This document shows, in pieces, positions 3,485-53,629 of a DNA stretch of 64,000 bases; within the stretch, counting starts at the first letter, position 1; every line of letters starts with the position of its first letter. The DNA comes from Mobula hypostoma. Its lineage: Eukaryota. Under the pieces are notes generated by a model. It saw nothing but the letters and a program-made list of their open reading frames with translations. It made no database searches and was not told the origin of the DNA. A program made the position numbers and the translations under genes. The DNA is taken from positions 42,038,001-42,102,000 of the forward strand of contig NC_086097.1 in the NCBI RefSeq assembly GCF_963921235.1, in the 5' to 3' direction.

Positions 3485-3486
3485 AT

Positions 3487-3772
3487 TGTATCGGTGTGCT
3501 ACACACAGCGCTAGAATAACCACACGGAGTCGGTGAGTTAGAGTTGCGATGAAAGAGACTTATTCAAACTTCGCGGCCTGCTTTAAAGCCTTCCCGTTCC
3601 CGCCCTCCCTGGGGCGGGACTACTGTGGGGAATGCATATTCCCAGACCCTTTCTGCGCGCGGGATTTTCCCCCTGCTGGTGAAGATGGCCTGGCGCCCTT
3701 TCTGGGGCCGGCCCTCTGCCTGCGCGCGCTGTTGTGAGCCGGTTCGTGTGCGCCAGAAAGTGGGTCGCCACA
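3487..3772 (-). repeat. 5' LTR (286 bp) of the Gypsy element
   Basis: The minus strand starts TGTGGCGACC (3772) and ends CCGATACA (3487), followed 2 nt later by the PBS. Confidence 0.85.
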
Positions 3773-11947: not shown

Positions 11948-14276
11948 CGATCTTGTAGTCAGGGATCCTCTTGGAAAGAGTGATTATAGTATGATTGAAT
12001 TTCACATTCGGATGGAGGATGAAATAGTTAGATCTAAAACTGATATATTATGCTTGAACAAGGGAGACTACAACGGGATGAGGGAGGTTGGCTGATGTGG
12101 ATTGGGAGCACAGGCTATTTGGTAGGACAGTTGAGGAACAGTGGAATACTTTCAAAGAGATTTTTCACAGTGCTCAACAGAAGTATATTCCAGTCAAAAG
12201 TAAGGACAGTAAGTGTGGGGAGAGCCAGCCTTGGATAACTAAGGAAATAAAAGATAGTATCAAATTAAAAGCTCGTGTGTACAAAGTCGCAAAGAGTAGT
12301 GGGAGACTGGAGAATTGGGCAAACTTTAAAAAGCAACAGGGAACAACTAAACAAGAAATAAGGAAAGAGAAGATAAGAGTACGAAAGTAAATTAGTACAA
12401 AATATAAAAACAGATAGCAAAAGTTTTTATAAATATATAAAGTGGAAGAGAGTGGCTGAAGTCAATGTAGGTCCCTTGGAAGACAAGAAGGGGAAATTGA
12501 TATTGGGCGATAAGGAAATGGCTGAGGCATTGAACAACTATTTTGTGTCAGTCTTCACAGTGGAGGACACGTCTAATATGCCAAAGAAGGATGTTATGGA
12601 CGAAATGGGAGGTGAGGACCTTGATGAAATCACTGTCACTAAAGAGATAGTGAAGAGCAAACTAGAGGGCCTGAAGGTAGATAAGTCCCCTGGTCCTGAT
12701 GGGATGCATCCCAGAGTGCTAAAGGAATTGGCGGAGGTTATAGTAGACACGTTGGTAATCATTTATCAAAACTCTCTCGACTCTGGGCAGGTCCTGGCGG
12801 ATTGGAAGACAGCAAATGTCACGCCACTTTTTAAAAAGGGATGTAGGCAAAAGACGGGCAACTATAGCCCAGTTAGCTTAACATCTGTAGTTGGGAAAAT
12901 GCTTGAAGCTGTCATTAAGGAAGAAATAGCAAAACATTTAGAAAGGAGTGGTTCTATTAGACAGACACAGCATGGATTCAGAAAGGGCAGGTCCTGTTTG
13001 ACAAAGTTACTGGAGTTCTTTGAGGACATAATGAGTGCAGTGGATAGAGGGGAACAGGTGGATGTCGTTTACTTGGATTTCTAGGAGGCGTTCGATAAGA
13101 TGCTGCACTAGAGACTTATAAATAAGATACAGATGCATGGAGTCAGAGGAAGTGTATTGGCATGGATAGTGAATTGGTTAACTGACAGACGGCAGAGAGT
13201 TGGTATAAGTGGGTGTTTCTCCGGTTGACGGTCAGTGGTGAGTGGGGTGCCACAGGGGTCGGTGCTGAGCCCGCAGCTGTTTACCATTTACATTGATGAT
13301 TTGGAAGAGGGGACTGAGTGTATCATAGCAAAATTTGCTGACGATACTAAACTGAGTGGAAAAGCAAATTGTACAGAGGATGTGGAGAGTCTGCAGAGGG
13401 ATATAAATAAGTTAAGTGAGAGTGCCAAAGTCTGGCAGATGGAATACAACGTTGGTAAATGCAAGATCATCCACTTTGTAAGGAATAATAGAAGAGTAGA
13501 TTATTAATTAAATGGTGAAAGATTGCAGCATGCTGTTGTGCAGAGGGACTTGGGAGTGCTTGTTCATGAATTGCAAAAAGTTGGCTTGCAGGTACAAGAA
13601 GTTATTAAGAAGGCACACGGAATGTTGGCCTTCATTGCTAGAGGGATTGAATTCAAGAGCAGGCAGGTCATGCTGCAACGATACAGGGCACTGGTGAGGC
13701 CGCAGCTGGAGTACTGTGTGCAGTTCTGGTCTCCATACTTGAGGAAGGACATACTGGCTTTGGAGGCAGTGCAGAGGAGGTTCACCAGGTTGATTCCAGA
13801 GATGAAGGGGTTAACTTATGAGGAGAGATTGAGTCACCTGGGACTATACTCTCTGGAGTTCAGAAGAATGAGAGGGGATCTTATAGAAACATACAAAATT
13901 TTGAAAGGGATGGATAAGATAGAAGTAGGAAAGTTGTTTCCATTGGTAGGTGAGACTAGAACTAGGGTACATTGCCTCAAGATTGAGGGGAGAAGATTTA
14001 GGACGGAGATGAGGAGAAACTGTTTTTCCCAGAGTATGGTGAATCTGTGGAATTCTCTGCCCAGGGAAGCAGTCAAGGCTTCCTCACTAAATATATTTAA
14101 GAAACAGTTAGATAGGTTTTTACATAGTAAGGGAATTAAGGGTTATGGGAAAAAGGCAGGTGGATGGAGCTGAGTTTACGGACAGATCAGCCATGATCTT
14201 ATTGAATGGTAGGGCAGGCTCAATGGGCCAGATGGCCTACTCCTACTCCTGCTCCTATTTCTTATGTTCTTATGTT
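11948..14276 (+). mobile_element. 5'-truncated CR1 LINE (ORF2 pseudogene plus 3' UTR)
   Basis: KSPGPDGMHPRVLKE, QHGFRKGRSC, GVPQGSVL, KFADDTKL, YCVQFWSP; several stops; tail (CTTATGTT)2. Confidence 0.95.
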
Positions 14277-16299
14277 CAAATGATCTTGAATCCTTAAACC
14301 AACAGCTTAGAATTCTAAATGAACATTTTCAAACAATCAAATAACAACTGGCCTTCACTCTTTGCTTTTTAAGGAAGGAAAACACCCCTTTAAACTACAC
14401 CCCCACTCCCTTGTGTCAATTACATTACTCAGTTGAAAAGGATTTTGATTTGTCAGTGAATGGTTTTCACCTGATGAGAATTTAGGTCAGCACTTACTCG
14501 CCTTAACAACTGATTGACAGTGACCTCATCATTCATCACCTGCGATATCAACAGAAGTAATTTCTCTGCAACATCAAGAGTATAGTGACCCTTTTTACAA
14601 ACTATAAAGCACTAATGAATTGATGGAGCTGCATATTGAAAGGCAAAGACAACTGATATCCGATCATCAGATCTTCACTGCAAATCAATACAGAAGACCA
14701 AAGAGACTGCTGGAACCTGGAAGAAGAAAAAATATCAAAATTCTGGAAGAGCTCGGTAGGACAAGCAGATACAAGTCACTGTTTCAGCATGATACTCTGT
14801 ATCACAGCTAAGGGAAGATTGCTAGTATACAGCAGATGGGGGGAAAGAGACTTATGAATGATATATGAAAAATGATGGATGGACAGAACATAATATTCTT
14901 CTCCCTTTGTTCTCCTTTCCCATCCTCCTCCTCTACCTAGTTCCATCTGCCAGTGATTCTCTCCCCACCTAGTTCCACCTATCATCAACGAGCTTCTATC
15001 TCCACTCTCCCCTACACTCCCAGAAGGTGTACACTGACAAGCTTTCCTCTTTCCTTTCATTCCTGATGCAGTGTCACAAACAAAATATAGGCTTACACCT
15101 TTTCCCTCTACAAATGTTGCCAGTTTGTTTTATATTAAAAAAAGATTTTTTAAAATTTATTATCCTAAAATATAAGATAAATGATTAAAGATGCAAAGGT
15201 TATGCTTGTAGCACTGCACAACTTTGACCTGTTCATATTTGCAAGCTTTCAAAATGGTCATTGTTGGTTAGTCTTGCACATATCTAGTTTTGCCTCAGGA
15301 ACGTTGTAACATCTGAACTTCTAAATAGACACCATTAAAGACTGACCCAATCCTGAAATCAGACCTCCTTCTGGATTCTATTGCACATGTTTCCTATCCA
15401 CACCCACCAACCCCCCACCCCCACCCCGCCCCGGCCCTGTCCAGATCAGGAAACTCAACCTAGAACGTTTCCCTCCAAAGTTCCTCCAGAGAACTTTGTG
15501 TTCCTCCATATTTCCATCATCTACCTCCTCATCCACCCCACTCTGCCTCTTCTCAAACTCTTGTTGATCACACGTTTTCTTGAATGAATTCTCACAAAAA
15601 CTATAACCATATGAGATGTTCACGATCTTCCAATATCTTCCAAGACATTGTGTTTCACCATCATGGGGCTGACTAGTCCTCCAACAATCAACAAACCTGG
15701 CCACTTCATAAAAGCTTTCAGAGGCAGTAGAATTTAAGGAAGGAGTTTATTTAAAATAATTAGTGGGGACTGAAGGCAGGTACCAATAGTATTTGCCAAG
15801 AATGTCAAGCAGCAATTTCAAGAAAGCAACTTGAAGCCTCAGCGTCACTGAGAAGGAAAAGTTATGACAACATTGGGAAGTTAAAACACTGGCCTTTTTA
15901 ACAGAGTAGATCACTTTTCAAAACTCTTCATTGATAATGACTAAACAAAAACAAAAACCAGAGCCAGCTACATTTCCAATATGGCAGAATTTTATATGTT
16001 GCATTATGTTCATTCCAGCATCATTCATACATTGCACAGCATTTAGTTTATGTAGGGTAGTGCTCCCATAAATAATTCATGATATCATTCATCTAGAAAT
16101 TATTGCATTTTATGCATTTGCATAATAATCATTTATTGTTACTACATTTATTGCAGTTTCTTCCTGATAACCTCAAGCAATCAAATAACCTTTCGGTATC
16201 ATGATGTAACTTTTATTCTTGTTAACCAGAAAGGGTTGATTTGAATTGATGATAAAATACTGGTCATAAGAAAGACTTTAGCCCCATGTTTTATTGAAA

Positions 16300-16644: not shown

Positions 16645-18451
16645 GTCCAATTAGACCCATTGCCTCAGCTTGCTCCTGCCCCACTGAGCTCATTTCTGCA
16701 TACCTCGACACTTTTTTTCCCCCCACCTATGTTCGTTACGCTTCTCAGGATCTGAATTTTTTCCAATAATTTTAAGTTCCCTGGCCCCCACCACTTTATT
16801 TTCACTATGGATGTCCAGTCCCTATATACCTCCATCCCCCACCAGGATGGTCTCAAAGCTCTCCACTTCCTTTTGGATTCCAGACCTAACCAGTTCCCCT
16901 CTACCACCACTCTCCTCCGTCTAGTGCTATTAGTCCTTACTCTTAATAATTTCTCCTTTGGCTCCTCCCACTTCCTCCAAACTAAAGGTATAGCCATGGG
17001 CACCCGTATGGGTCCCAGCTATGCCTGCCTTTTCGTTGGCTTTGTGGAACAATCCATGTTCCAAACCTATACTGGTATCCGTCCCCCACTTTTCCTTCAC
17101 TACATCAACGACTGCATTGGCACTGCTTCCCACACACATGCTGAGCTTGTTGACTTTGTTAACTTTGCCTCCAACTTTCACCCTGCCCTCAAATTTTCCT
17201 GGTCTATCTCTCTATCTCTTGCAAAAATGCCATCCCCTTCTCGCAATTCCTCCGTCTCCGCCGCATTTGCTCTCAGGATGAGGCTTTTCATTCCAGGACG
17301 AGGGAGATATCCTCCTTTTTTAAAGAAAGGGGCTTCCCTTCCTCCACCATCAACTCTGCTCTCAAACGCATCTCTACAATTTCACGCACATCTGCCCTCA
17401 CCCCATCCTCCCGCCACCCCACTAGGAATAGGGTTCCCCTTGTCCTCACCTACCACCCCACCAGCCTCCGGGTCCAACATGTACTCCTCCGTAACTTCCC
17501 CCACCTCCAACAGTATCTCACCACCAAGCACATCTTTCACTCCCCGCCCCCCCAACTTTCTGCTTTCCACAGGGATCACTCCTTATGCGACTCCCTTGTC
17601 CATTCCTCCCATCCCTCCCCACTGATCTCCCTCCTGGCACTTATCCTTGTAAGTGGAGCAAGTGCTACATATGCCCTTACACTTCCTCCCTTACCACCAT
17701 TCAGGGCCCCAGACAGTCCTTCCAGGTGAGGCGACACTTCACCTGTGAGTCGGCTGGGGTGATATACTGCGTCTGGTGCTCCCGATGTGGCCTTCTATAT
17801 ATTGGCGAGACCCGACGCAGACTGGGAGACCATTTCACTGAACACTTATGCTCTGTCCGCCAGAGAAAGCAGGATCTCCCAGTGGCCACACATTTTAATT
17901 CCACATCCCATTCCCATTCTGATATGTCTATCCACGGCCTCCTCTACTGTAAAGATGAAGCCACACTCAGGTTGGAGGAACAACACCTTATATTCCGTCT
18001 GGGTAGCCTCCAACCTGATGGCATGAACATTGACTTCTCTAACTTCCGCTAATGCCCCACCTCCCCCTCGTACCCCATCCTTTATTTATTTATTTATTTT
18101 TCCCCCTTTCTTTCTCTTTTTTCTCCCTTTGTCCCTCTCACTATATCTTCCCCTGGTGCTCCCCTCCCCCTTTCTTTCCCCCCTAGGCCTCCCGTCCCAT
18201 GATCCTCTCCCTTCTCCAGCCTTGTATCCCTTTTGCCAATCAATTTTCCAGCTCTTGGTTCCATCCCTCCTCCTCCTCCTGTCTTCTCCTATCATCTCGG
18301 ATCTCCCCCTCCCCCTCCCACTTTCAAATCTCTGACTACCTCTTCTTTCAGTTAGCACTGACGAAGGGTCTCGGCCCAAAACGTCAACTGTGCTTCTTCC
18401 TTTCGATGCTTCCTGGCCTGCTGCATTCCACCAGTATTTTGTGTGTGTTGG
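16645..18451 (+). mobile_element. 5'-truncated Penelope-like element: RT, GIY-YIG endonuclease, 3' pLTR
   Basis: RT MDVQSLYTSIPH, GIAMGTRMGPSYACLF, LHYINDCI (YIDD site mutated). Endonuclease GVIYCVWCSRCGLLYIGETRRRLGDHFTEH...GMN. Internal deletion/frameshift near 17210-17220. Hammerhead motif at about 18354-18390 with GAAA changed to AAAA. Confidence 0.95.
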
Positions 18452-28093: not shown

Positions 28094-29959
28094 TTATTGT
28101 TGATTCAAGTAACTGCTACAACAAGGAAGGCTGTAACCCTAGAGTCAGCAGCAGCTCTTTAGGAGTGCAATCTTATTAGACCCATGCTCTATCTCTTTCT
28201 CAGCTAGGCATTATTTTCTTCCAAGAGTTTTGGCCCAATTCCCTCTTGTAAACCACAACTGAATACTTCCAGCATCTTTTTAGGCAGTGAATTCCAAATC
28301 ATGGCACAATACTGATTTCCTTCGTGCTATTCCTGATTGTTATGCCAGTCCTCTTAAATCAATATACTCTGGCTCTAGATCCCTTTTATCAACAAAATCA
28401 GTTTCACTTTGATGATTTTGGATGCTTCTATCAAGTCTCTCTTTAGCCAGTTTTACACTGAGGAGAACAACTAGATCATTCAGCAAGCTGGAGCCCTTCA
28501 TCTCAATCCCTTCTGCATCTTTTCTGAAGCCCAAGTTCCATGAAACCATCACTGGGTTCCAGCAAACTAGCAACAGAGGAGCTGAGGGCAGTGTGGACAG
28601 GGTCAACGAACTTAACCTGTTCTTTAACAGATTTGACATTGTGGCCCCTGCCCATACCCCACATGAGTCATCTGTTGTTGGCCCCCAACAAACACATATT
28701 CCACTCTCCCTTCCCACCCAACCTCACAGTCCCCCGCCCTGCTCTCATGACTACACCCCCCCCCCACATGAAACCACCACACTGGGCTTCACAGCTCTAC
28801 AGGTGAGAGGACAGTTGAAACGTCTCCACCCAAGCAAGGCTGCAGGACCGGATGGTGTCAGCACCAGGGTGCTCAAAGCCTGTGCCCCTCAGCTATGTGG
28901 AGTGCTTCACCATATCTTCAACCTGAGCCTGAGTCTCCAGATGGTTACTGTGCTGTGGAAGACGTCCTGCCTTGTCCCTGTGCCGAAGATGCCGCGCCCC
29001 AGCGGCCTCAATGACTACAGACCGGTGGCATTGACCTCCCACATCATGAAGACCCTGGAGAGATTTGTTCTGGAGCTGCTCCGGCCTATGGTTAGGCCAC
29101 AATTAGATCCCCTCCAGTTCGCCTACCAGCCCCGACTAGGAGTTGAGGCTGCCATCGTCTACCTGCTGAACCGTGTCTACGCCCAGCTGGACAAGCCAGC
29201 GAACACTGTGAGGGTCATGTTTTTTGACTTCTCCAGTGCGTTCAACACCATTTGCCCTGCTCTGCTGGGGGAGAAGCTGACAGCGATGCAGGTGGATGCT
29301 TCCCTGGTATCATGGATTCTTGATTACCTGACTGGCAGACCACAGTACGTGTGCTTGCAACACTGTGTGTCCGACAGAGTGAGCAGCAGCACTGGGGCTC
29401 CACAGGGGACTGTCTTGCCTCCCTTTCTCTTCACCATCTACACCTCGGACTTCAACTACTGCACAGAGTCTTGTCATCTTCAGAAGTTTTCTGATGACTC
29501 TGCCATAGTTAGATGCATCAGCAAGGGAGATGAGGCTGAGTACAGGGCTATGGTGGGAAACTTTGTCACATGGTGTGAGCAGAATTATCTGCAGCTTAAT
29601 GTGAAAAAGACTAAGGAGCTGGTGGTAGACCTGAGGAGAGCTAAGGCACCGGTGACCCCTGTTTCCATCCAGGGGGTCAGTGTGGACATGGTGGAGGATT
29701 ACAAATACCTGGGGATACGAATTGACAATAAACTGGACTGGTCAAAGAACACTGAGGCTGTCTACAAGAAGGGTCAGAGCCGCCTCTATTTCCTGAGGAG
29801 ACTGAGGTCCTTTAACATCTGTCAGACGATGCTGACGATGTTCTACGAGTCTGTGGTGGCCAGTGCTATCATGTTTGCTGTTGTGTGCTGGGGCAACAGG
29901 CTGAGGGTAGCAGACACCAACAGAGGGTAGCAGACACCAACAGTCAACAAACTCATTCG

Positions 29960-31938
29960 AGGGGGGGCGTCACGTGATGACGTGGGACTGAGACGTGTGA
30001 ATCCAGCTCTCCTGTAAAAAATCAGCAAAGTACCGTTTAAAAAAAGCAAAGTTAATAAATACTTTCCGAAAACTACTCATAAACTTCGTAAGACTACTCT
30101 ACGATATGCCTCATAAACCACAACAGAAGAAGTCTGTTGTTGTGAAGTCGCCATGAGATGGGAAGAAAAAAGGGCCTACTGCAGCGATAGAGCCTCGGAT
30201 TCAGGTTGGATCTCCTTCAGAGGAGACGCATTTTATCTCTGGCGTAGAAGAACGGGGAGCAATGGCAGCGGTAGCGGTCTCTCGGAAATTGATGCCGGAA
30301 TTGCACATGCGTAAAGTAGTACGCATGCGCAAATCGACACAACTTAAACTACAAGAACCGACGGCCACTGCAACTGTAAGTGACTCAGAGTCAGAATTGG
30401 ATATAGCAGAGAATACAGATGAAGAGGAGGAGGAAGAACTGGAAGAGACTGGAAGTAAAGGAGACGACGGAGACATAAGAGAGGCTTTATTGCAATTAAC
30501 GGCTGAATTGAGAAAATTAAGAACAGAGTTTAGAGACGTGAAGATGTGCTATGATAAAGCTATGAAAAGACAGGATAAAATGGATAAGAAACTTCAGAAG
30601 ATGGAAAGAACAATGGAGCATATTAACGATAGAGTGGAAAAAACAGAAACTGATGTACTTGTCTGGAACACGGAAAGAAATCGACTCTTGGAGAAAGTGG
30701 ACGTGTTGGAAAATTTTAGTAGACGTAATAACATCAAAATTATCAGTCTTAAGGAAGGTATAGAGGGAGATAATCCACTAGAATTTTTTCAAAGATGGAT
30801 CCCGAAAACTTTGCAAATGAAAGAGGAAGACCGATCAATTGAAATTGAATGGGTACATAGAGCTCTAAGACCAAAACCACAAGATGACCAATATCCACGA
30901 TCAATTTTAATAAAATCCTTAAGATTTCAAGACAAGGAAAGGATCCTACAGGTGGCTGCCCAAGCTGCCAAGAAGAGAAAAGGGCCACTGATGATAGAAG
31001 GGAAGAAAATTTTTTTCTACCCTGACATAAGTTATGAACTTCTGAAGAGAAGGAAGAAATTTAATCCAGTGAAAAAAGCCCTATGGGATCACGGTTATCA
31101 ATTTATATTGCATAATCCTGCAACCTTGAAGATTTTTTTGCCTGGTGGAGAAAAAAATATTCACCAAATACAAGAACAAACCTAGGGGAGCGAGATGGAT
31201 TGAAGATGAAGACTGGATTAAAGATTAGGCCTGTTGGATTTTTAGGCGGATGAATATATAAATATATTATTAATTATATGAGGGAAGGGAAGAAAGGTTA
31301 AAATTTGAGGAATATTAGCTGGGAATAATGACATTATTTTTTTATATATATATACAATTTTTTGTTACGGGGGAGCTGGAAGAAACACTGACCAATCACT
31401 ACATTACTCGTGTGCAACCATGGCAATAGCCACGACCCGCACAATGGAGGGGGTAGTGTTGTGTATCTTTTCATTCACAACAGTAGTCGGGGGGGGGGTC
31501 TTTTGTTTTTCTCTTTTTGTATCTTATCTATCTTTTTTTTCTTTTTGCCTGGATGATTGGGAGGGAAACACATAGCAACATGGTGAGGTTCAAAGAGATT
31601 CCCCAGGGAACTATGAGAGTTGAGAAGCTAAGTAATGTTTTAGATTTTAAGAGATAAATATGAAACATTTTTGAATATTTGGAGCCCTTATTTATAGCTC
31701 CGATGATGAAGATCTTGGTTCCTTGGGGGGGGAAGTAACAAATATATATTAAATTTATTTTTATCCCATGGAGTATGTGCAAACCTTCCAATAGTCAGGT
31801 GGTTCTTTTTTTTTCTTTCTTTTCTCTTTAGGTAGGAGTATATACCGGGGGGGGAGGGTTAAGAAGAGGGGGGAGGGTGGATATTATTTTCTCATGTATT
31901 ACTTTGAAAACTTAATAAAAATTATATAAATAAAAAAA
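29960..31938 (+). mobile_element. L1-clade element with ORF1 only (ORF2 almost entirely missing), 11-bp TSD
   Basis: 5' G-run at 29961-29967, ORF1, AATAAA and poly(A) at 31914-31940. TSD AAACTCATTCG at 29949-29959 and 31939-31949. Confidence 0.9.
30106..31185 (+). pseudogene. L1 ORF1p (coiled coil, RRM, CTD); probable start 30106 with TGA at 30154-30156; open 30262..31185
   Basis: LENFSRRNNIKI, IEWVHRAL, PRSILIK, IFFYPD, PATLKI motifs. ATG 30106 is in frame with the tracked ORF. Confidence 0.85.
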
Positions 31939-34900
31939 AAACTCATTCGTAAGGCCAGCGATGTTGTGGGGATGGAACTGGACTCTCTCACGGTGGTGTC
32001 TGAAAAGAGGATGCTGTCTAAGTTGCATGCCATCTTGGTCAATGTCTCCCATCCACTACATAATGTACTGGTTGGGCACAGGAGTACATTCAGCCAGAGA
32101 CTCATTCCACCAAGATGCAACACAGAGCGTCATAGGAAGTCATTCCTGCCTGTGGCCATCAAACCTTACAACTCCTCCCTTGGAAGGTCAGACACCCTGA
32201 GCCAATAGGCTGGTCCTGGACTTACTTCCATCTGGCATAATTTGCATATTATTATTTAATTATTTATGGGTTTTATATTGCTATATTTATACGCTATTCT
32301 TGGTTGGTGCAGCTGCAACGAAACCCAATTTCCCTCGGGATCAATAAAGTATGTCTATCTATCTATCTATCTTTTCCCTCTCTATCAGCAGTGACCAGAA
32401 ACACTATCAGTAACTGACTCATTGTTTTATAATGTGAGAGGTGGCCTGAACAGATAGAAACATATTTTGAATGTAGAAACCTACATTTAAAGGATTCTGA
32501 TGTGCTTCAGTCTTTAAATGTCATTTCTGTAATGGAACAGTGTTATAAAGATTGTTAGAGCAAATACAACACATATAAACTCTATTAAAATGATGCAAGG
32601 TCAAGGATCATTTAAGTCAAAAATAATGAGAACTACAAAGAATTTGCTGAAGCAGAATTATGTTAAAACCTGCGAGATGTGGAAGACCAGGCACTAATTG
32701 AGACTAGTGTTTTGCTTGAAACTGTTCGACAGGACAGAATGATTTCATGAAATTTACAGAGACCCTGCCAACGATGTATGTTACTTAATGCAAGTAGAAT
32801 TACAACACTGTAATAAGAAAGAGGGGAAAGGAGGAGGTGAGGGTTGGGTCGATGTTACTAAAACAAGTGACATATGTGACAGACTGCTAGACGACTGATA
32901 TTAGGGTACCATTCAAGGAAAAGCTCACTCTGTGAGAAAGCAAGCACAGCTGATAAGCTCAATCTACGGAAGAGATGGGGCTATTAATAAACGGAACATA
33001 AAATTGACTTCTGAAAGGAACAGAAGTAAGATAACTGAAAATTGGTAAGTAGCTGATATGATCAAAGAGGAAAATCATGTAGGAATGGATAAAGAGAGAA
33101 TGAGAGAGGGGGGGCAAGGGGAAGAGGAGGAGAGAGGGAGAAAAAAAATGCATAAAAAAGGAAGAGAACCTCTGGAGTATGGAGAGGGAGTGCTTGGTAA
33201 ATCTTGTGTCTGTGTGCTGAATGCAACTCGCTCAATAAATTTGTTGAGCTTATATCCAATGTAATTCTATGCCAATCATGGTTTGCTGCAGCCACAGGCT
33301 GAGTTAGGCCAAATTAATTATGAATTGACATACCTGCCACTATTTACAAAGCCCGGTATTCTTTTTTTTAATATTTACTTTCTCAATCTGTCGAGCCATC
33401 CATAAAAAATTGTGTGCATCAATAGTCTCTGCCCCCTCAGCTGCCTCAGAATGCCTCCTTTCATATCTTATTGTTTTTGCTTAATATTCCCAAAGTTTAT
33501 CACTTCAGGTTTCCCTCCCTTAAACTCCACTTGCCTCATGCTCTTTCCACCAATCTCTCCACATCATCTTCTAGCACATCACCATCCTCATCCGTGCCTA
33601 CCTGTATTCCCACAGTTTGTGTCAACAATGGCTCAGGTTTCTGCTAAAAGCTCAGTTGCACATCATAGCAACAAAGCATATGATTTTCAGATTTTGTTAC
33701 AGTCAAAATAATTTGCAAATTATTGTAATTTGCTGATGGCTGTGTAATTTGGTGAAGGCAACAACACAGAATGAAGAATGAAGGAATCACTCACCGCAGT
33801 TTCTTTATCCCCATGTTTTGCTGCACATGTGGACGCGCCAGAAACTGCTGTCATATTGTCTCCAGTTGAAAAGAGAATGCTGGAAGCTCATTGTTATTCT
33901 CATCGCAAATTCCAAACCATTGTGAGTAATACATACAACACCAATTGCAAAGTTATTATATTGTCAACTGTGTAAAACACTTTCTTTAATTGCATCTGAT
34001 CTGTGTGCTTACTGGTTTATTAAACATATGTATTCTTTTCATCACTCTATTACACTAGTCATAGCTTTAATTCTTAAAACATTTGTAAAATGTCAAAAAC
34101 CATCTTAAATCACAATGTTAACTGTATGAGAATGTTAGCGGTGAGTTGGGAGTCACACAGAACATGCGAATTGTTATGGTTAGATATTTTCATAACTTAT
34201 GATGAATATGTACTGGCAATCACCAGGCATTTCATAGCAAAGGGCATTAAATGAAGATATCCAGCTGTTTTGTTGGATGTTCCCACTGCATTCATTAAGT
34301 TGTAATTCATGCAAATATGTAGCACAGAAGTGGGGCCTTTGGCCTAGTATATCAAGGCCTTTTGGCCCAGCCACATGAATCCCATTTGCATATTTTAAGT
34401 CTGCATCTCTCTCTGCCTTGCCTTTCTAAGTGCCCGTTTAAACGTCTCTCAAACACTATTATCTTAACTGATTCTACCACCTGAGTGACTTTCAAATTTC
34501 AAGCACTGTGTGAATAAACATTCCCTTCAAATTCCTTGGAAAACGCCTTCCCCTCAAAGTTAACTTATACCCTCTTGTTTTTGGATGACACTGCCATGGG
34601 AAAATTATTCTGACTATCTACTCTATCTATGCCTCTCATAATTTTATCCACCCCTCAGCCTTCTTCATTCTCGGAAAACAAGCCCAGTCTAGCTGATCTC
34701 TCCCCATAACTAAAGTCCTCCAGCCCAGGCAACATCCCATTGAATCCTCTTGGCACAGTCTCCAGTGTAATCATACCCCTTCAATAGTGTGGTGACCAAA
34801 ACTGCACACAATTAGTGCTTAAATTATATATGAAGAAAGATAGAATTTTCTTTAATTACTTACAATGCAATAAATCTGTTAAGTTTCTAAATGGCATCAC

Positions 34901-39894: not shown

Positions 39895-41955
39895 ATAGAC
39901 CATAAGACAAAGGAGCAGAAGTCGGCCATTCAGCCCATCGCATCTGCTCCACCATTTTATCATGAGCTGATCCATTCTCCCATTTAGTCCCACTCCCCTG
40001 CCTTCTCACCATAACCTTTGATGCCCTGGCTACTCAGATACCTATCAATCTCTGCCTTAAATACACCCAATGACTTGGCTTCCACTGCCGCCTGTGGCAA
40101 AAAATTCCACAGAATCACCATCCTCTGGCTAAAAAAATTTCTTCACATCTCTGTTCTGAATGGGCGCCCTTCAATCCTTAAGTCACGCCCTCTCATACTA
40201 GACTCCCCCACCATGGGAAACAACTTTGCCACATCCACTCTGTCCATGCCTTTCAACATTCGAAATGTTTCTATGAGGTCCCCCCTCATTCTTCTAAACT
40301 CCAAGGAGTACAGTCTAAAAACAGTCAAACATTCCTCATATGTTAACCCTCTCATTCCCGGAATCATTCTAGTGAATCTTCTCTGAACCCTCTCCAATGT
40401 CAGCACATTCTTTCTTAAATAAGGAGCCCAAAACTGCCCACAGTACTCCAAGTGAGGTCTCACCAGCGCCTATAGAGCCTCAACATCACATCCCTGCTCC
40501 TATACTCTATTCCTCTAGAAATGAATGCCAACATTGCATTTGCTTTCCTCACCACTGACTCAAACTGAAGATTAACCTTAAGAGTATCCTGCATGAGGAC
40601 TCCCAAGTCCCGTTGCATCTTAGAACTTTGAATTCTCTCCTCATTTAAATAATAGTCTGCCCATTTATTTCTTCTACCAAAGTGCATAACCATACACTTT
40701 CCAACATTGTACTTCATTTGCCACTTCTTTGCCCATTCTCCCAATCTATCCAAGTCTCTCTGCAGACTTTCTGTTTCCTCAGCACTACCGGCCCCTCCGC
40801 CTATCTTTGTATCATCAGCAAACTTAGCCACAAAGCCATATTTTCCATAATCCAAATCATTGATGTCCAACGTAAAAAGAAGCGGCCCCAACACACACCC
40901 CTGTGGAACACCACTGGTAACTGGAAGACAACAGAATAGGATCCATTTATTCCCACTCTCTGTTTCCTGCCGATCAGCCAACGCTCTATTCATGTATGTA
41001 ACTTTCCCATAATTCCATGGGCTCTTATCTTGTTAAGTAGCCTCATGTGAGGCACCTTGTCAAAGGCCTTCTGAAAATCTAAATATACAACATCCACTGC
41101 ATCTCCCTTGTCTAGCCTACTTGTAATTTCCTCAAAAAATTGCAATAGGTTTGTCAGGCAGGATTTTCCTTTAAGGAAACCATGCTGAGTTCTGCCTATC
41201 TTGTCATATGCCTCTAGGTACACCATAACCTCATCCTTGACAATCGACTCCAACAACTTCCCAACCACCGATGGCAAGCTAACAGGTCTATAATTTCCTT
41301 TTTGCTTTCTTGCCCCCTTCTTAAAAAGCGGAGTGACATTTACAATCTTCCAGTCCTCCGGAACCATGCCAGAATCTATTGACCTTTGAAAGATCATTGC
41401 TAATGCCTCCGCAATCTCCACAGTTACTTCCTTCAGAACACGAAGGTTCATTCCATCTGGTCTGGGTGATTTATCTACCCTTAGACTATTCAGCTTCCTG
41501 AGTATTTTCTCTGTCATAATTGTGACTGTGCACACTTCTCTTCCCTGCCACCCTTGAGTGTCCGATATACTGCTGATGTCTTCCTCAGTGAAGACTGATG
41601 CAAAATACTCACTCAGTTCCTCTGCCGTCTCCTTATCTCCCATTACAATTTCTCCAGCATCATTTTTTATCAGTCCTATATCTACTCTCACCTGCCTTTT
41701 ACTTTTTATATACTTGAAAAGGCTTTTAGTATCCTCTTTGATATTATTTGCTAGCTTCCTTTCATAGTTCATCTTTTCCCTCTTAATGACCTTCTTGGTT
41801 TCCTTTTGTAAGGTTTTAAGACCTTCCCAATCCTCTGTCTTCCCACTAATTTTTGCTTCCTTGTATGCCCTCTCCTTAGCTTTAACTTTGGATGTGACTT
41901 CTCTTGTCAACCACGGTTGCAACCTTTTCCCATTTGAAAATTTCCTCATTTTTGG
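39895..41955 (-). mobile_element. 5'-truncated CR1 LINE
   Basis: ORFs 40990..41949, 40460..40993 and 40143..40463: NYRPVSL, LDFQKAFDKV, GVPQG, KFADDTKI; frameshifted. Confidence 0.95.
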
Positions 41956-43082: not shown

Positions 43083-43206
43083 TATCTTCAATAATTGTAC
43101 ATATTATTCACAGAACTCACACTGTCATTACATATGCATTTGACGCTTGCCTTAATTCAACATATGATTGTATACTTGCCCCACAAAGAGTTTCAGACCT
43201 GAAACA

Positions 43207-44650
43207 TTAGACCGTAAGACCGTAAAACATAGGAACAGAATTAGGCCATTCAGCCCATCGAGTCTGCTCCACCATTGCATCATGGCTGACCCCGGATCCC
43301 ACTCAACCCCATACACCTTCCTTCTCCCCATATTCTTTGATGCCTCGACCAATCAGGAAACGATCAACTTCCGCCTTAAATATAGGCACAGATTTGGCCT
43401 CCACTACAGTCTGTGGCAGAGCATTCTACAGATTCACCACTCTCTGGCTAAGACAATTCCTCCTGACCTCTGCTCTAAAGGGTCGCTCCTCAATTTTGAG
43501 ACTGTGCCCTCCAGTTCTTGATGCCACACCAGAGGAAACATCCTCTCCACAACCATCCTATTTAGTCCTTTCAACATTCAGTAGGTTTCAATGAAATCCC
43601 TCTGCATTCTTCTAAGTTCCAGTAAGTACAAGCCCAAAGCTGCCAAACACTCCTCATATGTTAACCCCTTTATTCCCAGAATCATCCTCACGAACCTCTC
43701 CTGGACTCTCTTCGATGGCAACACACCTAGGGCCCAAAACTGTTGACAATACATTCAGTCTGGCCTGACTAGAGTCTTATAAAGGCTTAGCATTATCTCC
43801 TTATTTTTATATTCTATTCCCCTTGAAATGAATGGCAACATTGCATTTACCTTCTTTACCACAGACTCAGCCTGTGAATTAACATTCTGAGAGTCTTACA
43901 CAAGGACTCAGCAGCTCTGATATTTGAACCTTCTCCCCATTTAGAAAGTAGTCTGCACTTTTGTTCCTTTTACCGAAATGAATTATCATACATTTCCCAA
44001 CACTGTATTCCGTCTGCCACTTTTTGCCCAATCTTCCAATTTGTCTAAGTCCTGCAATCCCATTGCTTTCTCAGCACTACCTACCCCTCCACCTATCTTT
44101 GTATCATCCACAAACTTTGCCACAAAGCCAACAATTCCATTATCTAAATCATTGACAAACAATGTGAAAAGTATTGGTCCCATACTGACCCGTGAGGAAC
44201 ACCACTAGTCACCAGCAGCCAACCAAAAAAGGCCCTTTTCATTCCCACCTGCTATCTCCTACCTGTCAGCCAATCTGCTATTCATGCCAGTATCTTTCCA
44301 GTAACGCCATAGGATTTTATCTTGTTAAGCAGCCTCATGTGTGGCACCTTATCAAATGCCTTCTGAAAATCCAATTTAAATGACATCCACAGCCTGTCCT
44401 TTGTCCACTCTGTTTGTTACTTCCCCTAAGAACTCTAACAGATTTGTCAGGCAAGATTTCCCCTTTACAGAAACCATACTGACTTTGACTTACTTTGTCA
44501 TCAGTCTCCAATTGAAACCTCTTCCTCAATAATAGACTCCAACATTTTCCCAGCCGCTGAGGTTGGGCTAACTGGCCTATAACTTCTATTCCTTTGTCTT
44601 CCTCTGTTCTTAAAGAGTGGAGTGACATTTTCAATCCTCCAGTCCTCCAT
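43207..44650 (-). mobile_element. Decayed CR1 LINE 3' part
   Basis: GPILFTLFVNDLD...KFVDDTKIGG; CR1 3' UTR at the left end. Confidence 0.9.
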
Positions 44651-46272: not shown

Positions 46273-49200
46273 CCCCCATGTCGGCTACCCCACAGAGTGT
46301 TATACGGCCAGCTACATCATGGTCGATGCTCAGCTGCAGGGCCGAAGAAGCGCTATAAGGATCAGATGAAGAATGCTTTAAGGAAGTGCAAGATCAGACC
46401 CGAGGACTTGGAGGATGTTGCTGCTGACTGTACCACTTGGCGACAGCTATGTAGGGACAGGGACCAATATCCTGGCGGGGAGATTTGTGAGGGCTACTGA
46501 GGTGACTTTAAACTAGAATGGTTGGGGGGTGGGAATCAAAGTAAAGAGACTAAGAGAGAGGAGGCTAGTTCACAACAGGGGGACGGGAACAAGTGCAGAG
46601 AGACAGAGGGGTGTAAAATGAGGGTAGAAGCAAAAAGTAGTGAGGTGAAAAGTAAAAGTGGCAGGCTGGCAAATCCAGGGCAAAGATCAAAGAGGGCCAC
46701 TTTTCAACATAATTGTATAAGGGCTAAGAGTGTTGTAAAAGTGAGCCTGAAGGCTTTGTGTGTCAATGCAAGGAGCATTCATTACAAGGTGGATGAATTA
46801 AAAGTGCAGATCGTTATTAATGAATATGATATAGTTGGGATCACAGAGACATGGCTTCAGGGTGACCAAGGATGGGAGCTCAACATTCAGGGATATTCAA
46901 TATTCAGGAGAGATAGACATGAAAGAAAAGGAGGTGGGGTAGCATTGCTGGTTAGAGAGGAGATTAACACAATAGAAAGGAAGGACATTAGCCGGGAGGA
47001 TGTGGAATAGATATGGGTAGAGCTGCATTACACTAAGGGGCAGAAAGCGCTGGTGGGAGTTGTCTACAGGCCACCTAACAGTAGTAGTGAGGTTGGGGAT
47101 GGTATTAAACAGGAAATTAGAAATGCGTGCAATAAAGGAACAGCAGTTATAATGGGTGACTTCAATCTACATATAGATTGGGTGAACCAAATTGGTAAGG
47201 GTGCTGAGGAAGAGGATTTCTTGGACTGTATGCGGGATGGTTTTTTGAACCAACATGTCGAGGAACCAACTAGAGAGCTATTCTAGACTGGGTATTGAGC
47301 AATGAGAAAGGGTTAATTAGCAATCTTTTTGTGAGAGGCCCCTTGGGTAAGAGTGACCATAATATGGTGGAATTCTTCATTAAGATGGAGAGTGACATAA
47401 TTAATTCAGAAACAAAGGTTCTGAACTTAAAGAAGGGTAACTTTGAAGGTATGAGACGTGAATTAGCTAAGATAGACTGACAAATGACACTTAAAGGGTT
47501 GACAGTGGATATGCAATGGCAAGCACTTAAAGATTGCATGGATGAACTACAACAATTGTTCATCCCAGTTTGGCAAAAGAATAAATCAGGGAAGGTAGTG
47601 CACCCGTGGCTGACAAGGGAAATTAGGGATAGTATCAATTCCAAAGGAGAAGCATACATATTAGCCAGAAAAAGTGGCTCCCCTGAGGACTGGGAGAAAT
47701 TCAGAGTCCAGCAGAGGAGGACAAAGGGCTTAATAAGGAAAGGGAAAAAAGATTATGAGAGAAAACTGGCAGGGAACATAAAAACTGACTGTAAAAGCTT
47801 TTATAGATATGTGAAAAGAAAAAGATTGGTCAAGACAAATGTAGGTGCCCTACAGACAGAAACAGGTGAATTGATTATGGGGAGCAAGGACATGGCAGAC
47901 CAATTGAATAACTACTTTGATTCTGTCTTCACTAAGGAGGACATAAATAATCTTTTGGAAATAGTAGAGGACAGAGGGTCCAGTGAGATGGAGGAACTGA
48001 GGGAAATACATATTAGTAGGGAAGTGGTGTTAGGTAAATTGAAGGGATTAAAGGCAGATAAATCCCCGGGGCCAGATGGTCTGCATTCCATTGTGCTTAA
48101 GGAAGTAGCCCAAGAAATAGTGGATGCATTAGTGATAATTTTTCAAAACTCTTTAGATTCTGGACTAGTTCCTGAGGATTGGAGGGTGGCTAATGTAACC
48201 CCACTTTTTTAAAAAGGAGGGAGAGAGAAACCGGGGAATTATAGATCGGTTAGCCTAACATCGGTGGTGGGGAAAATGCTAGAGTCAGTTATCAAAGATG
48301 TGATAACAGCACATTTGGAAAGCGGTGAAATCATCGGACAAAGTCAGCATGGATTTGTGAAAGGAAAATCATGTCTGACGAATCTCATAGAATTTTTTGA
48401 GCATGTAACTAGTAGAGTGGATAGGGGAGAACCAGTGGATGTGGTATATTTGGATTTTCAAAAGGCTTTTGACTAGGTCCCACACAGGAGATTAGTGTGC
48501 AAACTTAAAGCACACAGTATTGGGGGTAAGGTATTGATGTGGATAGAAAATTGGTTGGCAGACAGGAAGCAAAGAGTGGGAATAAACGGGACCTTTTCAG
48601 AATGGCAGGCAGTGTCTAGTGGGGTACCGCAAGGCTCAGTGCTGGGACCTCAGTTGTTTACAATATATATTAATGACTTAGATGAGGGAATTAAATGCAG
48701 CATCTCCAAGTTTGCGGATGACACGAAGCTGGGCGGCAGTGTTAGCTGTGAGGAGGATGCTAAGAGGATACAGAGTGACTTGGATAGGTTAGGTGAGTGG
48801 GCAAATTCATGGCAGATGCAATTTAATGTGGATAAATGTGAGGTTATCCACTTTGGTGGCAAAAACAGGAAAACAGATTATTATTTGAATGGTGGCCGAT
48901 TAGGAAAAGGGGAGGTGCAATGAGACCTGGGTGTCATTATACACCAGTCATTGAAAGTGGGCATGCAGGTACAGCAGGCGGTGAAAAGGGCGAATGGTAT
49001 GCTGGCATTCATAGCAAGAGGATTCAAGTACAGGAGCAGGGAGGTACTACTGCAGTTGTACAAGGCCTTGGTGAGACCACACCTAGAGTATTGTGTGCAG
49101 TTTTGGTCCCCTAATCTGAGGAAAGACATCCTTGCCACAGAGGGAGTACAAAGAAGGTTTACCAGATTGATTCCTGGGTTGGCAGGGCTTTCATATGATG

Positions 49201-49876
49201 AAAGACTGGATCGAATAGGCTTAGACTCGTTAGAATTTAGAAGATTGAGGGGGGATCTTATTGAAACGTATAAAATCCTAAAGGGATTGGACAGGCTAGA
49301 TGCAGGAAGATTGTTCCCGATGTTGGGGAAGTCCAGAACGAGGGCTCACAGTTTGAGGATAAAGGGGAAGTCTTTTAGGACTGAGATTAGGAAAACTTCT
49401 TCACACAGAGAGTGGTGAATCTGTGGAGTTCTCTGCCACAGGAAACAGTTGAGGCCAGTTCATTGGCTATATTTAAGAGGGAGTTAGATATGGCCCTTGT
49501 GGCTAAAGGGATCAGTGGGTATGGAGGGAAGGCTGGTACAGGGTTCTGAGTTGGATGATCACCATGATCATACTGAATGGCGGTGCAGGCTCGAAGGGCT
49601 GAATGGCCTACTCCTGCACCTATTTTCTATGTTTCTATGTTTCTAAAGATTACAGGGTCACCAGATGCTGCAATGATTCTAGAGATGGAAAGAACAACCA
49701 GAAGACAGCAGAAGAGAGCCAGGAGAAATGCAGCCATGGTTGCCACCACTATCACATATACATGTCCCACCTGTAATAGAGCTTGTGGGTCCAGGATAGG
49801 ACTGTATAGTCATCAAAGATCTCACCGTTAAAGGAGTGGAAGTCGTCATCGGATTTTGATGGACAACCGAAGAAAG

Positions 49877-51345: not shown

Positions 51346-52228
51346 TTGCAGAAATATAACATATTTCACAACATGTGCCAGTGATTAAATCTGATTCTGA
51401 TTCTGAAATGCTTCAAAATGTAATTCCTCAAATTATGTCTTTGAGTCTGTGCTTTTAAAATTTATCTTCCATGTGTGAGACATTTAATTGTTCTGGTCTT
51501 GGTTTCGGAATCATTTATGCTTCAATTAAAACGTTTACCCTAATTTTCATCTCATTATCTTTCATCTTACATTAATTTAAGATAGGAAAATGATGCAGGT
51601 GTGCTGATAAAACTCAGCACTAAAATCTTCCAGGAGTGACTCTGCCAAGTTTAGACCAACCCGTATCCCTCTGACTTAAGTCAAAATATTGTTGGAATAT
51701 TTACTGCAAAGTGAAATGACCATGTGAACCTGTTCATTATAATCCATATACTTTACACACATGTTGGCAAAGGCATCAAGATAAATGAATCAAAGGCAGG
51801 TAAATGACACGAGGCTATAGACCAATCATGATCTAATCAAGTTTTGAAGCAGCCTAAAGCAGTTTTACTAATACCATGTTTATCATTCTTCAAAACTGTT
51901 CTAAAATTACTTTTATCAAAAATAACAATTTTTTCTTTCTTTTGTTAAACTGTTCTCCATTAGTACCCCTGTAGCATCTTCACATATCCTTTCTGCATGT
52001 CTTTTTGCATTATTTCAACAGTTTGCAAAGGTTTCTTTCACAATTATTCATTGCTTCAAAATACACTAAATACCAAGATTTTATTCTGCTGTTCCTCAGA
52101 GAAAAATAGCAATTTTAACAATTCAAACTATAACTGTATTTCAATTTGAAGCCTATTGCCCATCCTCACTGGACTTATCTCATGTAGATAGTTTCATTTC
52201 CATTACAACCTAGGTGCATGAATACTCA

Positions 52229-53629
52229 AACAACACACATAAAAATTGCCGGTGAACGCAGCAGGCCAGGTAGCATCTCTAGGAAGAGGCACAGTTGACG
52301 TTTCAGGCCGAGACCCTTCGTCAGGATTAACTGAAAGAAGAGATAGTAAGAAATTTGAAAGTGGGAGGGGGAGGGGAGATCCAAAATGATAGGAGAAGAC
52401 AGGAGGGGGAAGGGATGGAGCTAAGAGCTGGAAAGTTGATTGGCAAAAGGGATATGAGAGGATCATGGGACGGGAGGCCTAGGGGGAAAGAAAGGGGGAG
52501 GGGGGAAGCCCAGAGGATGGGCAAGGAGTATAGTGAGAGGGACAGAAGGAGAAAAAGGAGAGAGAGAAAAAAAATTAATAATAAATAAATAAACAAATAA
52601 ATAAATAACAGATGGGGTACGAAGGGGAGGTGGGGCCTTAACGGAAGTTAGAGAAGTCAATGTTCATCCCATCAGGTTGGAGGCTACCCAGACAGAATAC
52701 AAGGTGTTGTTCCTCCAACCTGAGTGTGGCTTCATCTTTACAGCAGAGGAGGCCGTGGATAGACATGTCAGAGTGGGAATGGGATGTGGAATTAAAATGA
52801 GTGACCACTGGGAGATCCTGCTTTCTCTGGCGGACAGAGCGTAGGTGTTCAGTGAAATGGTCTCCCAGTCTGCGTCTGGTCTCGCCAATATATAGAAGGA
52901 CTCGTTGGGAGCACCGGACGCAGTACATCACCCCAGCCGACTCACAGGTAAAGTGTCGCCTCACCTGGAAGGACTGTCTGGGGCCCTGAACGGTGGTGAG
53001 GGAGGAAGTGTAAGGGCATTTGTAGCACTTGTTTTGCTTACAAGGATAAGTGCCAGGAGGGAGATCGGTGGGGAGGGATGGGGGATACGAATGGACAAGG
53101 GAGTCACGTAGGGAGCGATCCCTGTGGAAAGCAGAGAGAGGTGGGGAGGGAAAGATGTGCTTGGTGGTGGGATCCCGTTAGAGGTGGCAGAAGTTACGGA
53201 GAATAATATGCTGGATCTGGAGGCTGGTGGGGTGGTAGGTGAAGACAAGGAGAACCCTATTCCTAGTGGGGTGGCGGGAGGATGGGGTGAGAGCGGATGT
53301 GTGTGAAATGGGAGAGATGCACCTCCCGCCACCCCACTAGGAATAGGGTCCCATGATCCTCTCATATCCCTTTTGCCAATCAACTTTCCAGCTCTTAGCT
53401 CCGTCCCTTCCCCCTCCTGTCTTCTCCTATCATTTCGGATCTCCCCCTCTCCCTCCCCCTCCCACTTTCAAATCACTTACTATCTCTTCTTTCAGTTAGT
53501 CCTGATGTAAGGTCTCGGCCTGAAACGTCGACTGTACCTCTTCCTATAGATGCTGCCTGGCCTGCTGCATTCACCAGCAATTTTTATGTGTGTTGCTTGA
53601 AATTCCAGCATCTGCAGATTTCCTCGTGT
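52229..53629 (-). mobile_element. Penelope-like element (GIY-YIG + pLTR) with an inverted pLTR at 53345-53629; 15-bp TSD
   Basis: ORF 52638..52964: GVMYC...LYIGETRRRLGDHFTEH. TSD GTGCATGAATACTCA at 52214-52228 and 53630-53644. Long inverted terminal repeats. Confidence 0.95.
52292..52333 (-). ncRNA. Minimal hammerhead motif (core intact, helix I imperfect)
   Basis: Minus strand CTGACGA-AGGGTCTCGGCCT-GAAA-CGTC-AACTG. Confidence 0.7.

What the first reader, a model, noticed from the sequence alone, without database searches (positions are those of the whole stretch)
29949..31949. ORF1-only L1 ('half-L1'/HAL1-like) with intact 5' end, poly(A) and TSD
Seen: a 2-kb insertion with a 5' G-run, ORF1p, spacer, 3' UTR, AATAAA, poly(A) and an exact 11-bp TSD. 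ORF2 appears reduced to its last ~16 codons (LRDKYETFLNIWSPYL*, about 31647-31697). Known: HAL1 elements encoding ORF1p without ORF2p are described from mammals. Inference: if many copies share this junction, it is an independently evolved non-autonomous ORF1-only L1 family in a fish-like genome. Otherwise it is a one-off deletion. This copy has a TGA at codon 17, possibly CGA decay.
Basis: partly seen in the sequence, partly recalled or inferred. Interest (0 to 1): 0.7.

Follow-up and report, generated by a model that had tools for sequence, protein, structure and literature searches.

The report
ORF1-only L1 family in rays
This is a dead copy of a 2-kb jumping gene that kept the first LINE-1 gene but lost the one for its copying enzyme; other copies in related animals have the same cut, so it looks like a family that borrows the enzyme from full LINE-1s, a way of life known from mammals, here in a ray.

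Summary
Window 29960-31938 is an L1-derived insertion between exact 11-bp duplications, sitting inside an older LINE. It has a G-run 5' end, L1 ORF1, a 443-nt spacer, 16 codons of ORF2, a 3' UTR and a short A-tail. Its nearest proteins are from Mobula, Hemitrygon and Hypanus rays. Contigs of public runs place the junction at 31646. Relatives continue there into an ORF2-type C-terminal frame on one side and towards a candidate ORF2 start on the other; the overlap is 1 nt, not GT-AG. Contigs of two of three organisms bridge the same junction without this copy's own alleles, one at family-level depth, so it is not a one-off deletion. Best reading (0.78): a self-propagating, non-autonomous, HAL1-like family mobilised by ORF2p in trans. 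This copy is dead: stop at codon 17 (CGA decay confirmed), 51-nt loss, second stop. Not shown: other copies' TSDs, selection on ORF1, the whole parent. New member of a known kind; ten paper searches listed no HAL1 outside mammals. The scan noted ORF1-only elements before in two other genomes. Side lead: a TRIM-ORF1p fusion shared by two stingray genera.

The parts
29949..29959 (+). Left target-site duplication (AAACTCATTCG)
   Evidence: chance 1 of 3000; empty site seen in host-LINE contigs of three runs
29960..30105 (+). 5' UTR, 146 nt, starting A + G7 + CGTCACGTG; intact 5' end, presumed internal Pol II promoter
   Evidence: fish L1 5' UTR 165 +/- 42 nt (PMC5381506 table 2); frog L1 5' consensus GGGGGCGTGGCC; CpG o/e 1.3; promoter function inferred
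30106..31185 (+). L1 ORF1 (disordered N-end, coiled coil, RRM, CTD); dead in this copy: TGA at 30154-30156, 51-nt loss at 31156, TAG at 31183-31185 (relatives read on to about 31203)
31204..31646 (+). Retained ORF1-ORF2 intergenic region (443 nt, T-rich and G-rich runs); about 21 nt of its end lost with ORF2
   Evidence: fish IGR 536 +/- 132 nt; X1 loose end behind 31646
31646..31646 (+). Deletion junction; one shared T; removes almost all of ORF2 (about 3.7 kb, inferred from fish ORF2 length)
   Evidence: loose ends before 31646 in X1, X3, X9 and behind 31646 in X1; bridging records 16 and 24
31647..31697 (+). ORF2 C-terminal remnant, 16 codons and TAG, no start codon in frame
   Evidence: in relatives the frame continues upstream as ...PLEKITYN (hand-read from loose ends)
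31698..31931 (+). 3' UTR with poly-T and poly-G tracts; AATAAA at 31914-31919 and 31929-31934
   Evidence: PMC5381506 section 13; no folding signal, z = 0.54
31932..31938 (+). Short A-tail (7 A)
31939..31949 (+). Right target-site duplication
28416..29948 (+). Host LINE, RT-bearing part upstream of the insertion (RVT_1 + ALKBH8_N; Rex1/Babar type by recall), with its own 20-bp tandem duplication at 29903-29943
   Evidence: joint 29924>31939
31950..32208 (+). Host LINE, continuation of its ORF downstream of the insertion

Best explanation
A full-length ray L1 lost about 3.7 kb in one event, from about 21 nt before its ORF2 start to about 20 codons before its ORF2 stop, with only 1 nt of overlap (end joining at DNA level or a jump of the reverse transcriptase; not splicing). 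The 2-kb product kept what a LINE RNA needs in cis: 5' promoter, ORF1, spacer, 3' UTR and poly(A) signal. It was transcribed, probably coated by its own ORF1p, and copied by target-primed reverse transcription using ORF2p from full-length L1s. It became a family of tens to hundreds of copies in several related rays. The window holds one full-length daughter, inserted at a loose L1-endonuclease site (bottom strand GTTT/GT) in an older LINE, that has since drifted 2-4% and lost ORF1 function. Shown: anatomy, breakpoints, junction shared with other copies in other organisms, decay of this copy. Inferred: size of the deletion, identity of the ORF2 start, independent retrotransposition of the other copies, trans use of ORF2p, and a cis role of ORF1p (about 0.65 given the family).
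For: ORF1 is L1 ORF1p: profile A1 hits human ORF1p 2ykp at E 1e-15; the model hits 2yko at E 4e-9. Sizes of 5' UTR, IGR and 3' UTR match fish L1. Undeleted relatives exist: loose ends at 31646 in 4 (X1), 6 (X3) and 1 (X9) contigs on the ORF2 side and 5 (X1) on the spacer side. The junction is shared: of 24 listed records, the 2 that reach 31646 both bridge it. X9 record 24 (31576-31682, depth 31.4, 1 other letter, the family's allele at 31587) compares with depth 37 and 47.4 for the two other near-identical records and 2.3-5.7 for the five divergent ones. X3 record 16 (31453-31693) differs by 17 letters and 9 gaps in 242, as expected of two copies each about 3.5% from a common master. Internal control: at the ORF1 loss (31156) there are loose ends but none of the 24 records bridges. 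Depth is about level from 5' UTR to junction, with no 3' excess. Exact TSD and A-tail show that this copy was inserted by TPRT with both ends. ORF1-only L1 derivatives are known to spread (rat RNHAL1, about 7500 copies, PMC2241872 passage), and Pol II transcripts need ORF1p besides ORF2p (PMC2666806 abstract).
Against: Flanks of other copies were not seen, so no second TSD is shown. Only 24 of 11,993 laid records and 18 of 409 loose ends are listed. None of the 8 listed X1 records reaches the junction, and X1 has as many loose ends at 31646 (5 and 4) as at the ORF1 loss (5). The tool warns that contig depth is no copy number; X9's library is not on record. No run holds more than 34% of the element's words, so the window's own individual is probably not among them. 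ORF1 changes of this copy show no significant excess of silent sites (9 of 22, 6.0 expected, P = 0.11), so nothing here shows selection on ORF1. The parent's ORF2 was seen only as 17-30 letter ends; that these are L1 ORF2 rests on position and on recalled motifs.
Confidence: 0.78

Rival explanations
1. The family is real, but ORF1 is a passenger: the RNA is mobilised like a long SINE or processed pseudogene, with both proteins supplied in trans. This overlaps with the best explanation and differs only in the role of ORF1p.
For: No test here shows selection on ORF1. This copy's ORF1 has three lesions. Bipartite non-autonomous LINEs without any ORF exist (PMC5786205 passages).
Against: The majority of relatives lack the codon-17 stop and the 51-nt loss. 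The deletion spares ORF1 wholly and removes ORF2 almost exactly. Guinea-pig HAL1 kept ORF1 coding for 29-44 Myr (PMC3627910 passage).
Confidence: 0.25
2. One old deletion copy was multiplied passively, by segmental duplication or as a passenger in another repeat, and never retrotransposed as a unit again.
For: No flank of another copy was seen. This copy lies inside a very abundant LINE (flank depth 10-100 times the element's).
Against: Host-LINE contigs cross the empty site (joint 29924>31939 in 10, 5 and 4 contigs) and no listed joint or piece links host LINE to the L1 ends. X3 record 16 is 7% away from this copy. This copy's TSD is exact while its body has drifted 2-4%.
Confidence: 0.08
3. 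Full-length L1 masters repeatedly give ORF2-less daughters with the same junction, by splicing (SpIRE-like) or a preferred reverse-transcriptase jump; the daughters are dead ends.
For: Spliced L1 RNAs do retrotranspose in humans and give many copies with one junction (PMC5860796 abstract). The junction follows a TTTTAG.
Against: By the loose ends the removed part begins (T)GG and ends ATAA(T): no GT-AG, GC-AG or AT-AC on either strand, and 1 nt of overlap. The TTTTAG is retained, not removed. In X9 the junction path is about as deep as the ORF1 path, unlikely for by-products.
Confidence: 0.07
4. A one-off deletion private to this locus.
For: This copy has other apparently private deletions (31156, perhaps 31694). 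No listed X1 record bridges the junction.
Against: Bridging contigs in two organisms carry the family's alleles at 31483 and 31587, not the window's.
Confidence: 0.03

Closest known systems
Rat RNHAL1 / mammalian HAL1 ('half-L1'; Smit 1999; Bao and Jurka 2010, known to me only through passages of PMC5753468, PMC2241872, PMC3627910, PMC5786205)
   Same: L1 5' end and ORF1 kept, ORF2 deleted, poly(A) end, close to a co-existing L1; presumed trans use of ORF2p.
   Different: Cartilaginous fish, independent origin from a ray L1 lineage (ORF1p about 20% identical to human). Only 2 kb; keeps a long IGR, an ORF2 tail and the parent's own 3' UTR. Copy number of order 100 rather than thousands. ORF1 selection untested.
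ORF1-present bipartite non-autonomous LINEs of other clades: HeT-A (Jockey), Ag-Sponge (CR1) (PMC5786205 passage)
   Same: Internal deletion leaves 5' part, ORF1 and 3' part; depends on an autonomous partner.
   Different: Other LINE clades and hosts; HeT-A is telomere-specific (recalled), this element is dispersed as far as seen.
Fish and frog L1 (PMC5381506, passages and sections 9 and 13)
   Same: Short 5' UTR starting with a G-run, long IGR, T-rich 3' UTR, AATAAA and A-tail.
   Different: Lacks the 3.5-3.8-kb ORF2; that paper sampled no cartilaginous fish and does not mention HAL1 (0 hits for 'shark', 'HAL1').
SpIREs, spliced L1 copies (PMC5860796, abstract)
   Same: Many copies share one exact internal deletion.
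   Different: SpIREs lose 5' UTR or 5' UTR/ORF1 at splice sites and are dead ends; here ORF2 is lost at a non-splice junction and the 5' UTR is whole.

Membership tests
L1 clade (parent) | ORF1p with coiled coil, RRM and CTD | tested here: met
   Pfam alone misses this copy but hits 3 of 12 alignment members with Tnp_22_dsRBD and 2 of 12 with Transposase_22
L1 clade (parent) | Short G-run 5' UTR, long IGR, AATAAA, A-tail, variable TSD as in fish and frog L1 | tested here: met
   the A-tail is short
L1 clade (parent) | ORF2p with APE endonuclease and an RT that groups with L1 | not testable with these tools
   only 17-30 letters beyond each breakpoint were seen; searches found no parent locus or fused protein
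HAL1-type (ORF1-only L1 derivative) | Encodes ORF1p, no ORF2p | tested here: met
   only 16 ORF2 codons without a start
HAL1-type (ORF1-only L1 derivative) | Derived from a co-existing L1 by loss of ORF2 | tested here: met
   loose ends on both sides of 31646
HAL1-type (ORF1-only L1 derivative) | Multi-copy family sharing the junction | tested here: met
   bridging records in 2 of the 3 runs that hold the element, one at family depth; shown in related organisms, not in the window's own genome
HAL1-type (ORF1-only L1 derivative) | Copies inserted independently, each with its own TSD | not testable with these tools
   no genome held; contigs do not reach flanks
HAL1-type (ORF1-only L1 derivative) | ORF1 kept open under purifying selection in the ORF2-less lineage | tested here: inconclusive
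   majority alleles lack the codon-17 stop, but cannot be phased with the junction; this copy's changes fit neutral decay
SpIRE | Junction at splice donor and acceptor | tested here: not met
   ends of the removed part are not GT-AG
SpIRE | Loss within 5' UTR or 5' UTR/ORF1 | tested here: not met
   5' UTR and ORF1 start are whole

The most novel reading that the evidence does not exclude
The first HAL1-type family outside mammals: a 2-kb parasite of L1 that arose in rays by near-exact removal of ORF2, predates the split of at least two species, is now the main form of its L1 subfamily in at least one of them, keeps ORF1p under selection in cis, and has spawned a shorter sub-lineage that also dropped the ORF2 remnant. 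This would make ORF1-only parasitism a vertebrate-wide outcome of L1 biology and give a young parent-derivative pair for testing why ORF1p is needed in cis.
Probability: 0.4. Interest if true: 0.6.

Novelty: new member of a known kind. Interest (0 to 1): 0.45.

Why it matters
HAL1 elements are the natural evidence that ORF1p acts in cis on its own RNA while ORF2p can be borrowed. The papers I could read place them in mammals only. An independent case in rays, with the parent still close (differences of a few percent) and a clean junction, widens this to cartilaginous fish, whose lineage split from ours over 400 million years ago (recalled), and allows a direct dN/dS test. It also matters for repeat annotation: such copies would be counted as broken L1s. 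The single locus itself is a dead copy and of little interest.

Tried and rejected
Whole-genome count: no genome held. Parent locus: none in viral contigs (12 pattern matches, 0 confirmed) or metagenome contigs (477 matches, 0 confirmed); no longer ORF1-ORF2 fused protein among 3950 candidates (weak evidence). No L1 ORF2 elsewhere in the window: motif scan and Pfam on 57 of 134 ORFs of 85 aa or more. No RNA holder listed. Selection on ORF1 from this copy's differences: a first count (9 silent of 21 codons against a site ratio of 3.85) looked suggestive but vanished once transitions were weighted (P = 0.11); it used only the 22 ORF1 rows among the 40 of 161 rows shown. RNA structure: none in the 3' UTR (z 0.54) or IGR (z +2.2). 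Bin-level depth cannot tell a shared from a private junction (similar at 31156 and 31646). Earlier notes of this scan by sequence or relatives: nothing. Splicing rejected as origin (see rivals). PMC5872511 and PMC5203782 passages held nothing on ORF1-only L1.
Full report
1. Observation. The stretch is as described. AAACTCATTCG occurs twice in the window, at 29949-29959 and 31939-31949. Of 3000 random placements with the same spacing, 1 gave a direct repeat of 11 nt or more. Between them lie 1979 nt: A plus seven G, a 146-nt 5' UTR, ORF1 from ATG 30106, a 443-nt spacer, 16 codons LRDKYETFLNIWSPYL and TAG (31647-31697), a 3' UTR with T- and G-tracts, two AATAAA and 7 A. The insertion splits the RT frame of an older LINE (Pfam RVT_1 E 1e-22 and ALKBH8_N; 'Rex1/Babar' is my recalled label). 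Contigs of that LINE cross the empty site in three runs: joint 29924>31939 in 10, 5 and 4 contigs; the offset comes from a private 20-bp tandem duplication at 29903-29943. No second copy of the element lies in the window.

2. ORF1. Twelve proteins of 2415 candidates match. The closest are Mobula hypostoma models (89% over 64% of the query; 71% over all), then Hemitrygon and Hypanus, so the host is a ray, probably close to Mobula (inference). Pfam misses this copy, but a profile of 12 sequences hits human L1 ORF1p at E 1e-15. The AlphaFold model (mean pLDDT 67; residues 1-102 disordered; helix 105-189; RRM; CTD) has human ORF1p structures as its first 11 matches. This copy cannot make ORF1p. 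Codon 17 is TGA, where 98-100% of depth in three runs has C at 30154 and P0002 has R. Seventeen codons are missing at 31156 (loose ends). A TAG at 31183 stands where P0001 reads on; the family's letter there is not among the rows shown.

3. The junction. No genome is held, so I used public runs. Twenty of 24 listed runs, from 7 studies and 4 coded organisms, hold part of the element, none more than 34% of its words. I laid 4 of the 24 at 85% likeness: X1 (organism A, 5818 contigs), X3 (B, 5709), X9 (C, 392) and X21 (E, 2 reads, uninformative). At 31646, contigs that match the downstream side arrive from other sequence in all three runs (4, 6 and 1 contigs). Read by hand, that sequence is in frame with the remnant and gives ...PLEKITYN-LRDKY, a motif I recall as the end of fish L1 ORF2; no tool tested this. 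Five X1 contigs that match the spacer leave at the same base and reach an ATG 22 letters on, which I take as the ORF2 start (inferred). The two sides share one T. The removed part begins (T)GG and ends ATAA(T), which fits no splice rule. With fish ORF2 at 3773 +/- 71 nt (PMC5381506 table 2, passage), about 3.7 kb are gone, and the parent would be about 5.7 kb, the usual size for fish.

4. Is the junction shared? The output lists 24 of 11,993 records. Two reach 31646 and both bridge it with more than 31 letters on each side. X9 record 24 (31576-31682) has one other letter; at 31587 all X9 depth shows A where the window has G, so it is not this locus's sequence. Its depth, 31.4, is close to that of the two other near-identical X9 records (37, 47.4) and far above the five divergent ones (2.3-5.7). 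That gives at least five copies. If X9 is a shallow whole-genome run of a 2.5-4 Gb genome, a Poisson guess gives about 95-123; the library is not on record and the tool warns that depth is no copy number. X3 record 16 (31453-31693, depth 72.4, like other single X3 records) differs by 17 letters and 9 gaps in 242 and lacks the window's allele at 31483. Seven percent is what two copies would show if each were about 3.5% from a common master, the distance implied by the word share. As a control, none of the 24 records bridges the ORF1 loss at 31156, where loose ends appear in X1 and X9. Against this reading: none of the 8 listed X1 records reaches the junction; X1 has as many loose ends at 31646 as at 31156; only 18 of 409 loose ends are shown; and no flank of another copy was seen. 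Of the 40 differences shown (of 161), 37 are carried by 85% or more of depth in both X1 and X3, so they are mostly this copy's own; 8 of the 37 are CpG decay.

5. Two further variants. One X1 contig (depth 146.6, shorter side 26 letters, below the tool's comfort limit of 30) joins 31645 to 31703 and so lacks the ORF2 remnant. One X9 contig leaves at 31694 and reads seven more codons to a stop. The window's TAG at 31695 may therefore come from a second small loss; whether it is private is open.

6. Mechanism. Most likely one internal deletion left an RNA with promoter, ORF1, spacer, 3' UTR and poly(A) signal. Such an RNA can be transcribed by Pol II, bound by its own ORF1p, and copied by ORF2p from full-length L1. 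The exact TSD, both ends and the A-tail show TPRT for this copy; the site (bottom strand GTTT/GT) is a loose fit to the recalled TTTT/AA preference. Pol II transcripts need ORF1p besides ORF2p in culture (PMC2666806, abstract), and rat RNHAL1 reached about 7500 copies this way (PMC2241872, passage). A third of the length should also make full-length copies likelier (inference); depth shows no 3' excess. Whether ORF1p is needed in cis is not shown: 9 of 22 ORF1 changes are silent against 6.0 expected (P = 0.11), which fits neutral decay of a dead copy and says nothing about the masters. I put the self-propagating family at 0.78, passive amplification at 0.08, recurrent by-products of full-length masters at 0.07 and a one-off deletion at 0.03. 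A passenger ORF1 (0.25) overlaps with the first.

7. What is known. HAL1 is defined as a non-autonomous L1 derivative encoding only ORF1p that arose several times in mammals (PMC5753468, passage; PMC13756887, PMC8535693 and PMC4859970, passages). Kojima groups it with HeT-A and Ag-Sponge as ORF1-present bipartite LINEs (PMC5786205, passages). Bao and Jurka 2010 is not held; I saw it only as cited. The element works like a HAL1 and meets three of five defining tests; independent insertion could not be tested and ORF1 selection is inconclusive. It is not descended from mammalian HAL1. The listings of searches showed no paper on an ORF1-only L1 in cartilaginous fish or other non-mammals. PMC5381506 and PMC5203782 have 0 hits for 'shark'. 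The library lacks most subscription journals, Repbase and Dfam could not be searched, and I opened no supplements; a Repbase entry or a supplementary repeat library may already hold this family. The scan's own notes include two ORF1-only elements from other genomes, unchecked by me.

8. Verdict. Real, and most likely a dead member of a HAL1-like family in rays: a new member of a known kind in a lineage where I found no report of it. Interest 0.45; 0.6 if the bold reading (probability 0.4) holds. A side lead may be worth more than the finding: RefSeq models in Hemitrygon akajei and Hypanus sabinus join a TRIM RING and B-box to a whole, open L1 ORF1p at the same place, 161 of 168 and 345 of 364 residues identical in the two parts.

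Noticed in passing
Not in the window: P0004 (XP_072890665.1, Hemitrygon akajei), P0013 and P0014 (XP_059827035.1, XP_059827034.1, Hypanus sabinus): Gene models join a TRIM RING and B-box to a complete, open L1 ORF1p of this lineage, at the same join in two stingray genera; identity 161 of 168 in the TRIM part and 345 of 364 in the ORF1 part. Candidate domesticated TRIM-ORF1p fusion, by analogy with TRIMCyp and L1TD1 (recalled); it could co-assemble with L1 ORF1p and mark it for degradation. Automated models; literature not searched; no earlier scan note.
   Followed up: partly
window 31645-31703: One X1 contig (depth 146.6, shorter side 26 letters) joins 31645 to 31703: a possible sub-lineage with the same left breakpoint that lacks the ORF2 remnant.
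   Followed up: no
window 31580-31657: A 25-codon ORF at the end of the spacer; by hand reading of the X1 loose end, in the undeleted form its stop would overlap the candidate ORF2 start (ATGACTAA), as in stop-restart coupling. May be chance.
   Followed up: no
window 29961-29990: The 5' end holds GTCACGTGA and TGACGTGG right after the G-run (E-box and CRE-like words, recalled), candidates for the internal promoter.
   Followed up: no
window 29903-29943: Exact 20-bp tandem duplication in the host LINE, 5 nt before the left TSD; absent from the host family's contigs. It breaks the host frame and may or may not be linked to the insertion.
   Followed up: partly
Not in the window: P0001, P0005, P0006, P0012: Other ray gene models named after host genes (TADA1, ADAT1, STXBP6, Ig light chain) consist wholly or partly of this L1 ORF1: mis-annotation or exonised ORF1.
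   Followed up: no
window 550-3563 (- strand): LTR-retrotransposon-type gag-pol remains (DUF7041, aspartyl protease, RT, RNase H, integrase zinc finger), broken into several frames.
   Followed up: no
window 12280-14280, 39900-41950, 43200-44650, 46500-49640, 56870-57670; 16750-18450, 52200-53600; 59560-64000: The rest of the window is mostly decayed LINE pieces (RT and endonuclease hits; mutual matches), including CR1/L2-like, Penelope-like and further Rex1-like copies (class names recalled). No L1 ORF2 was found among them.
   Followed up: partly
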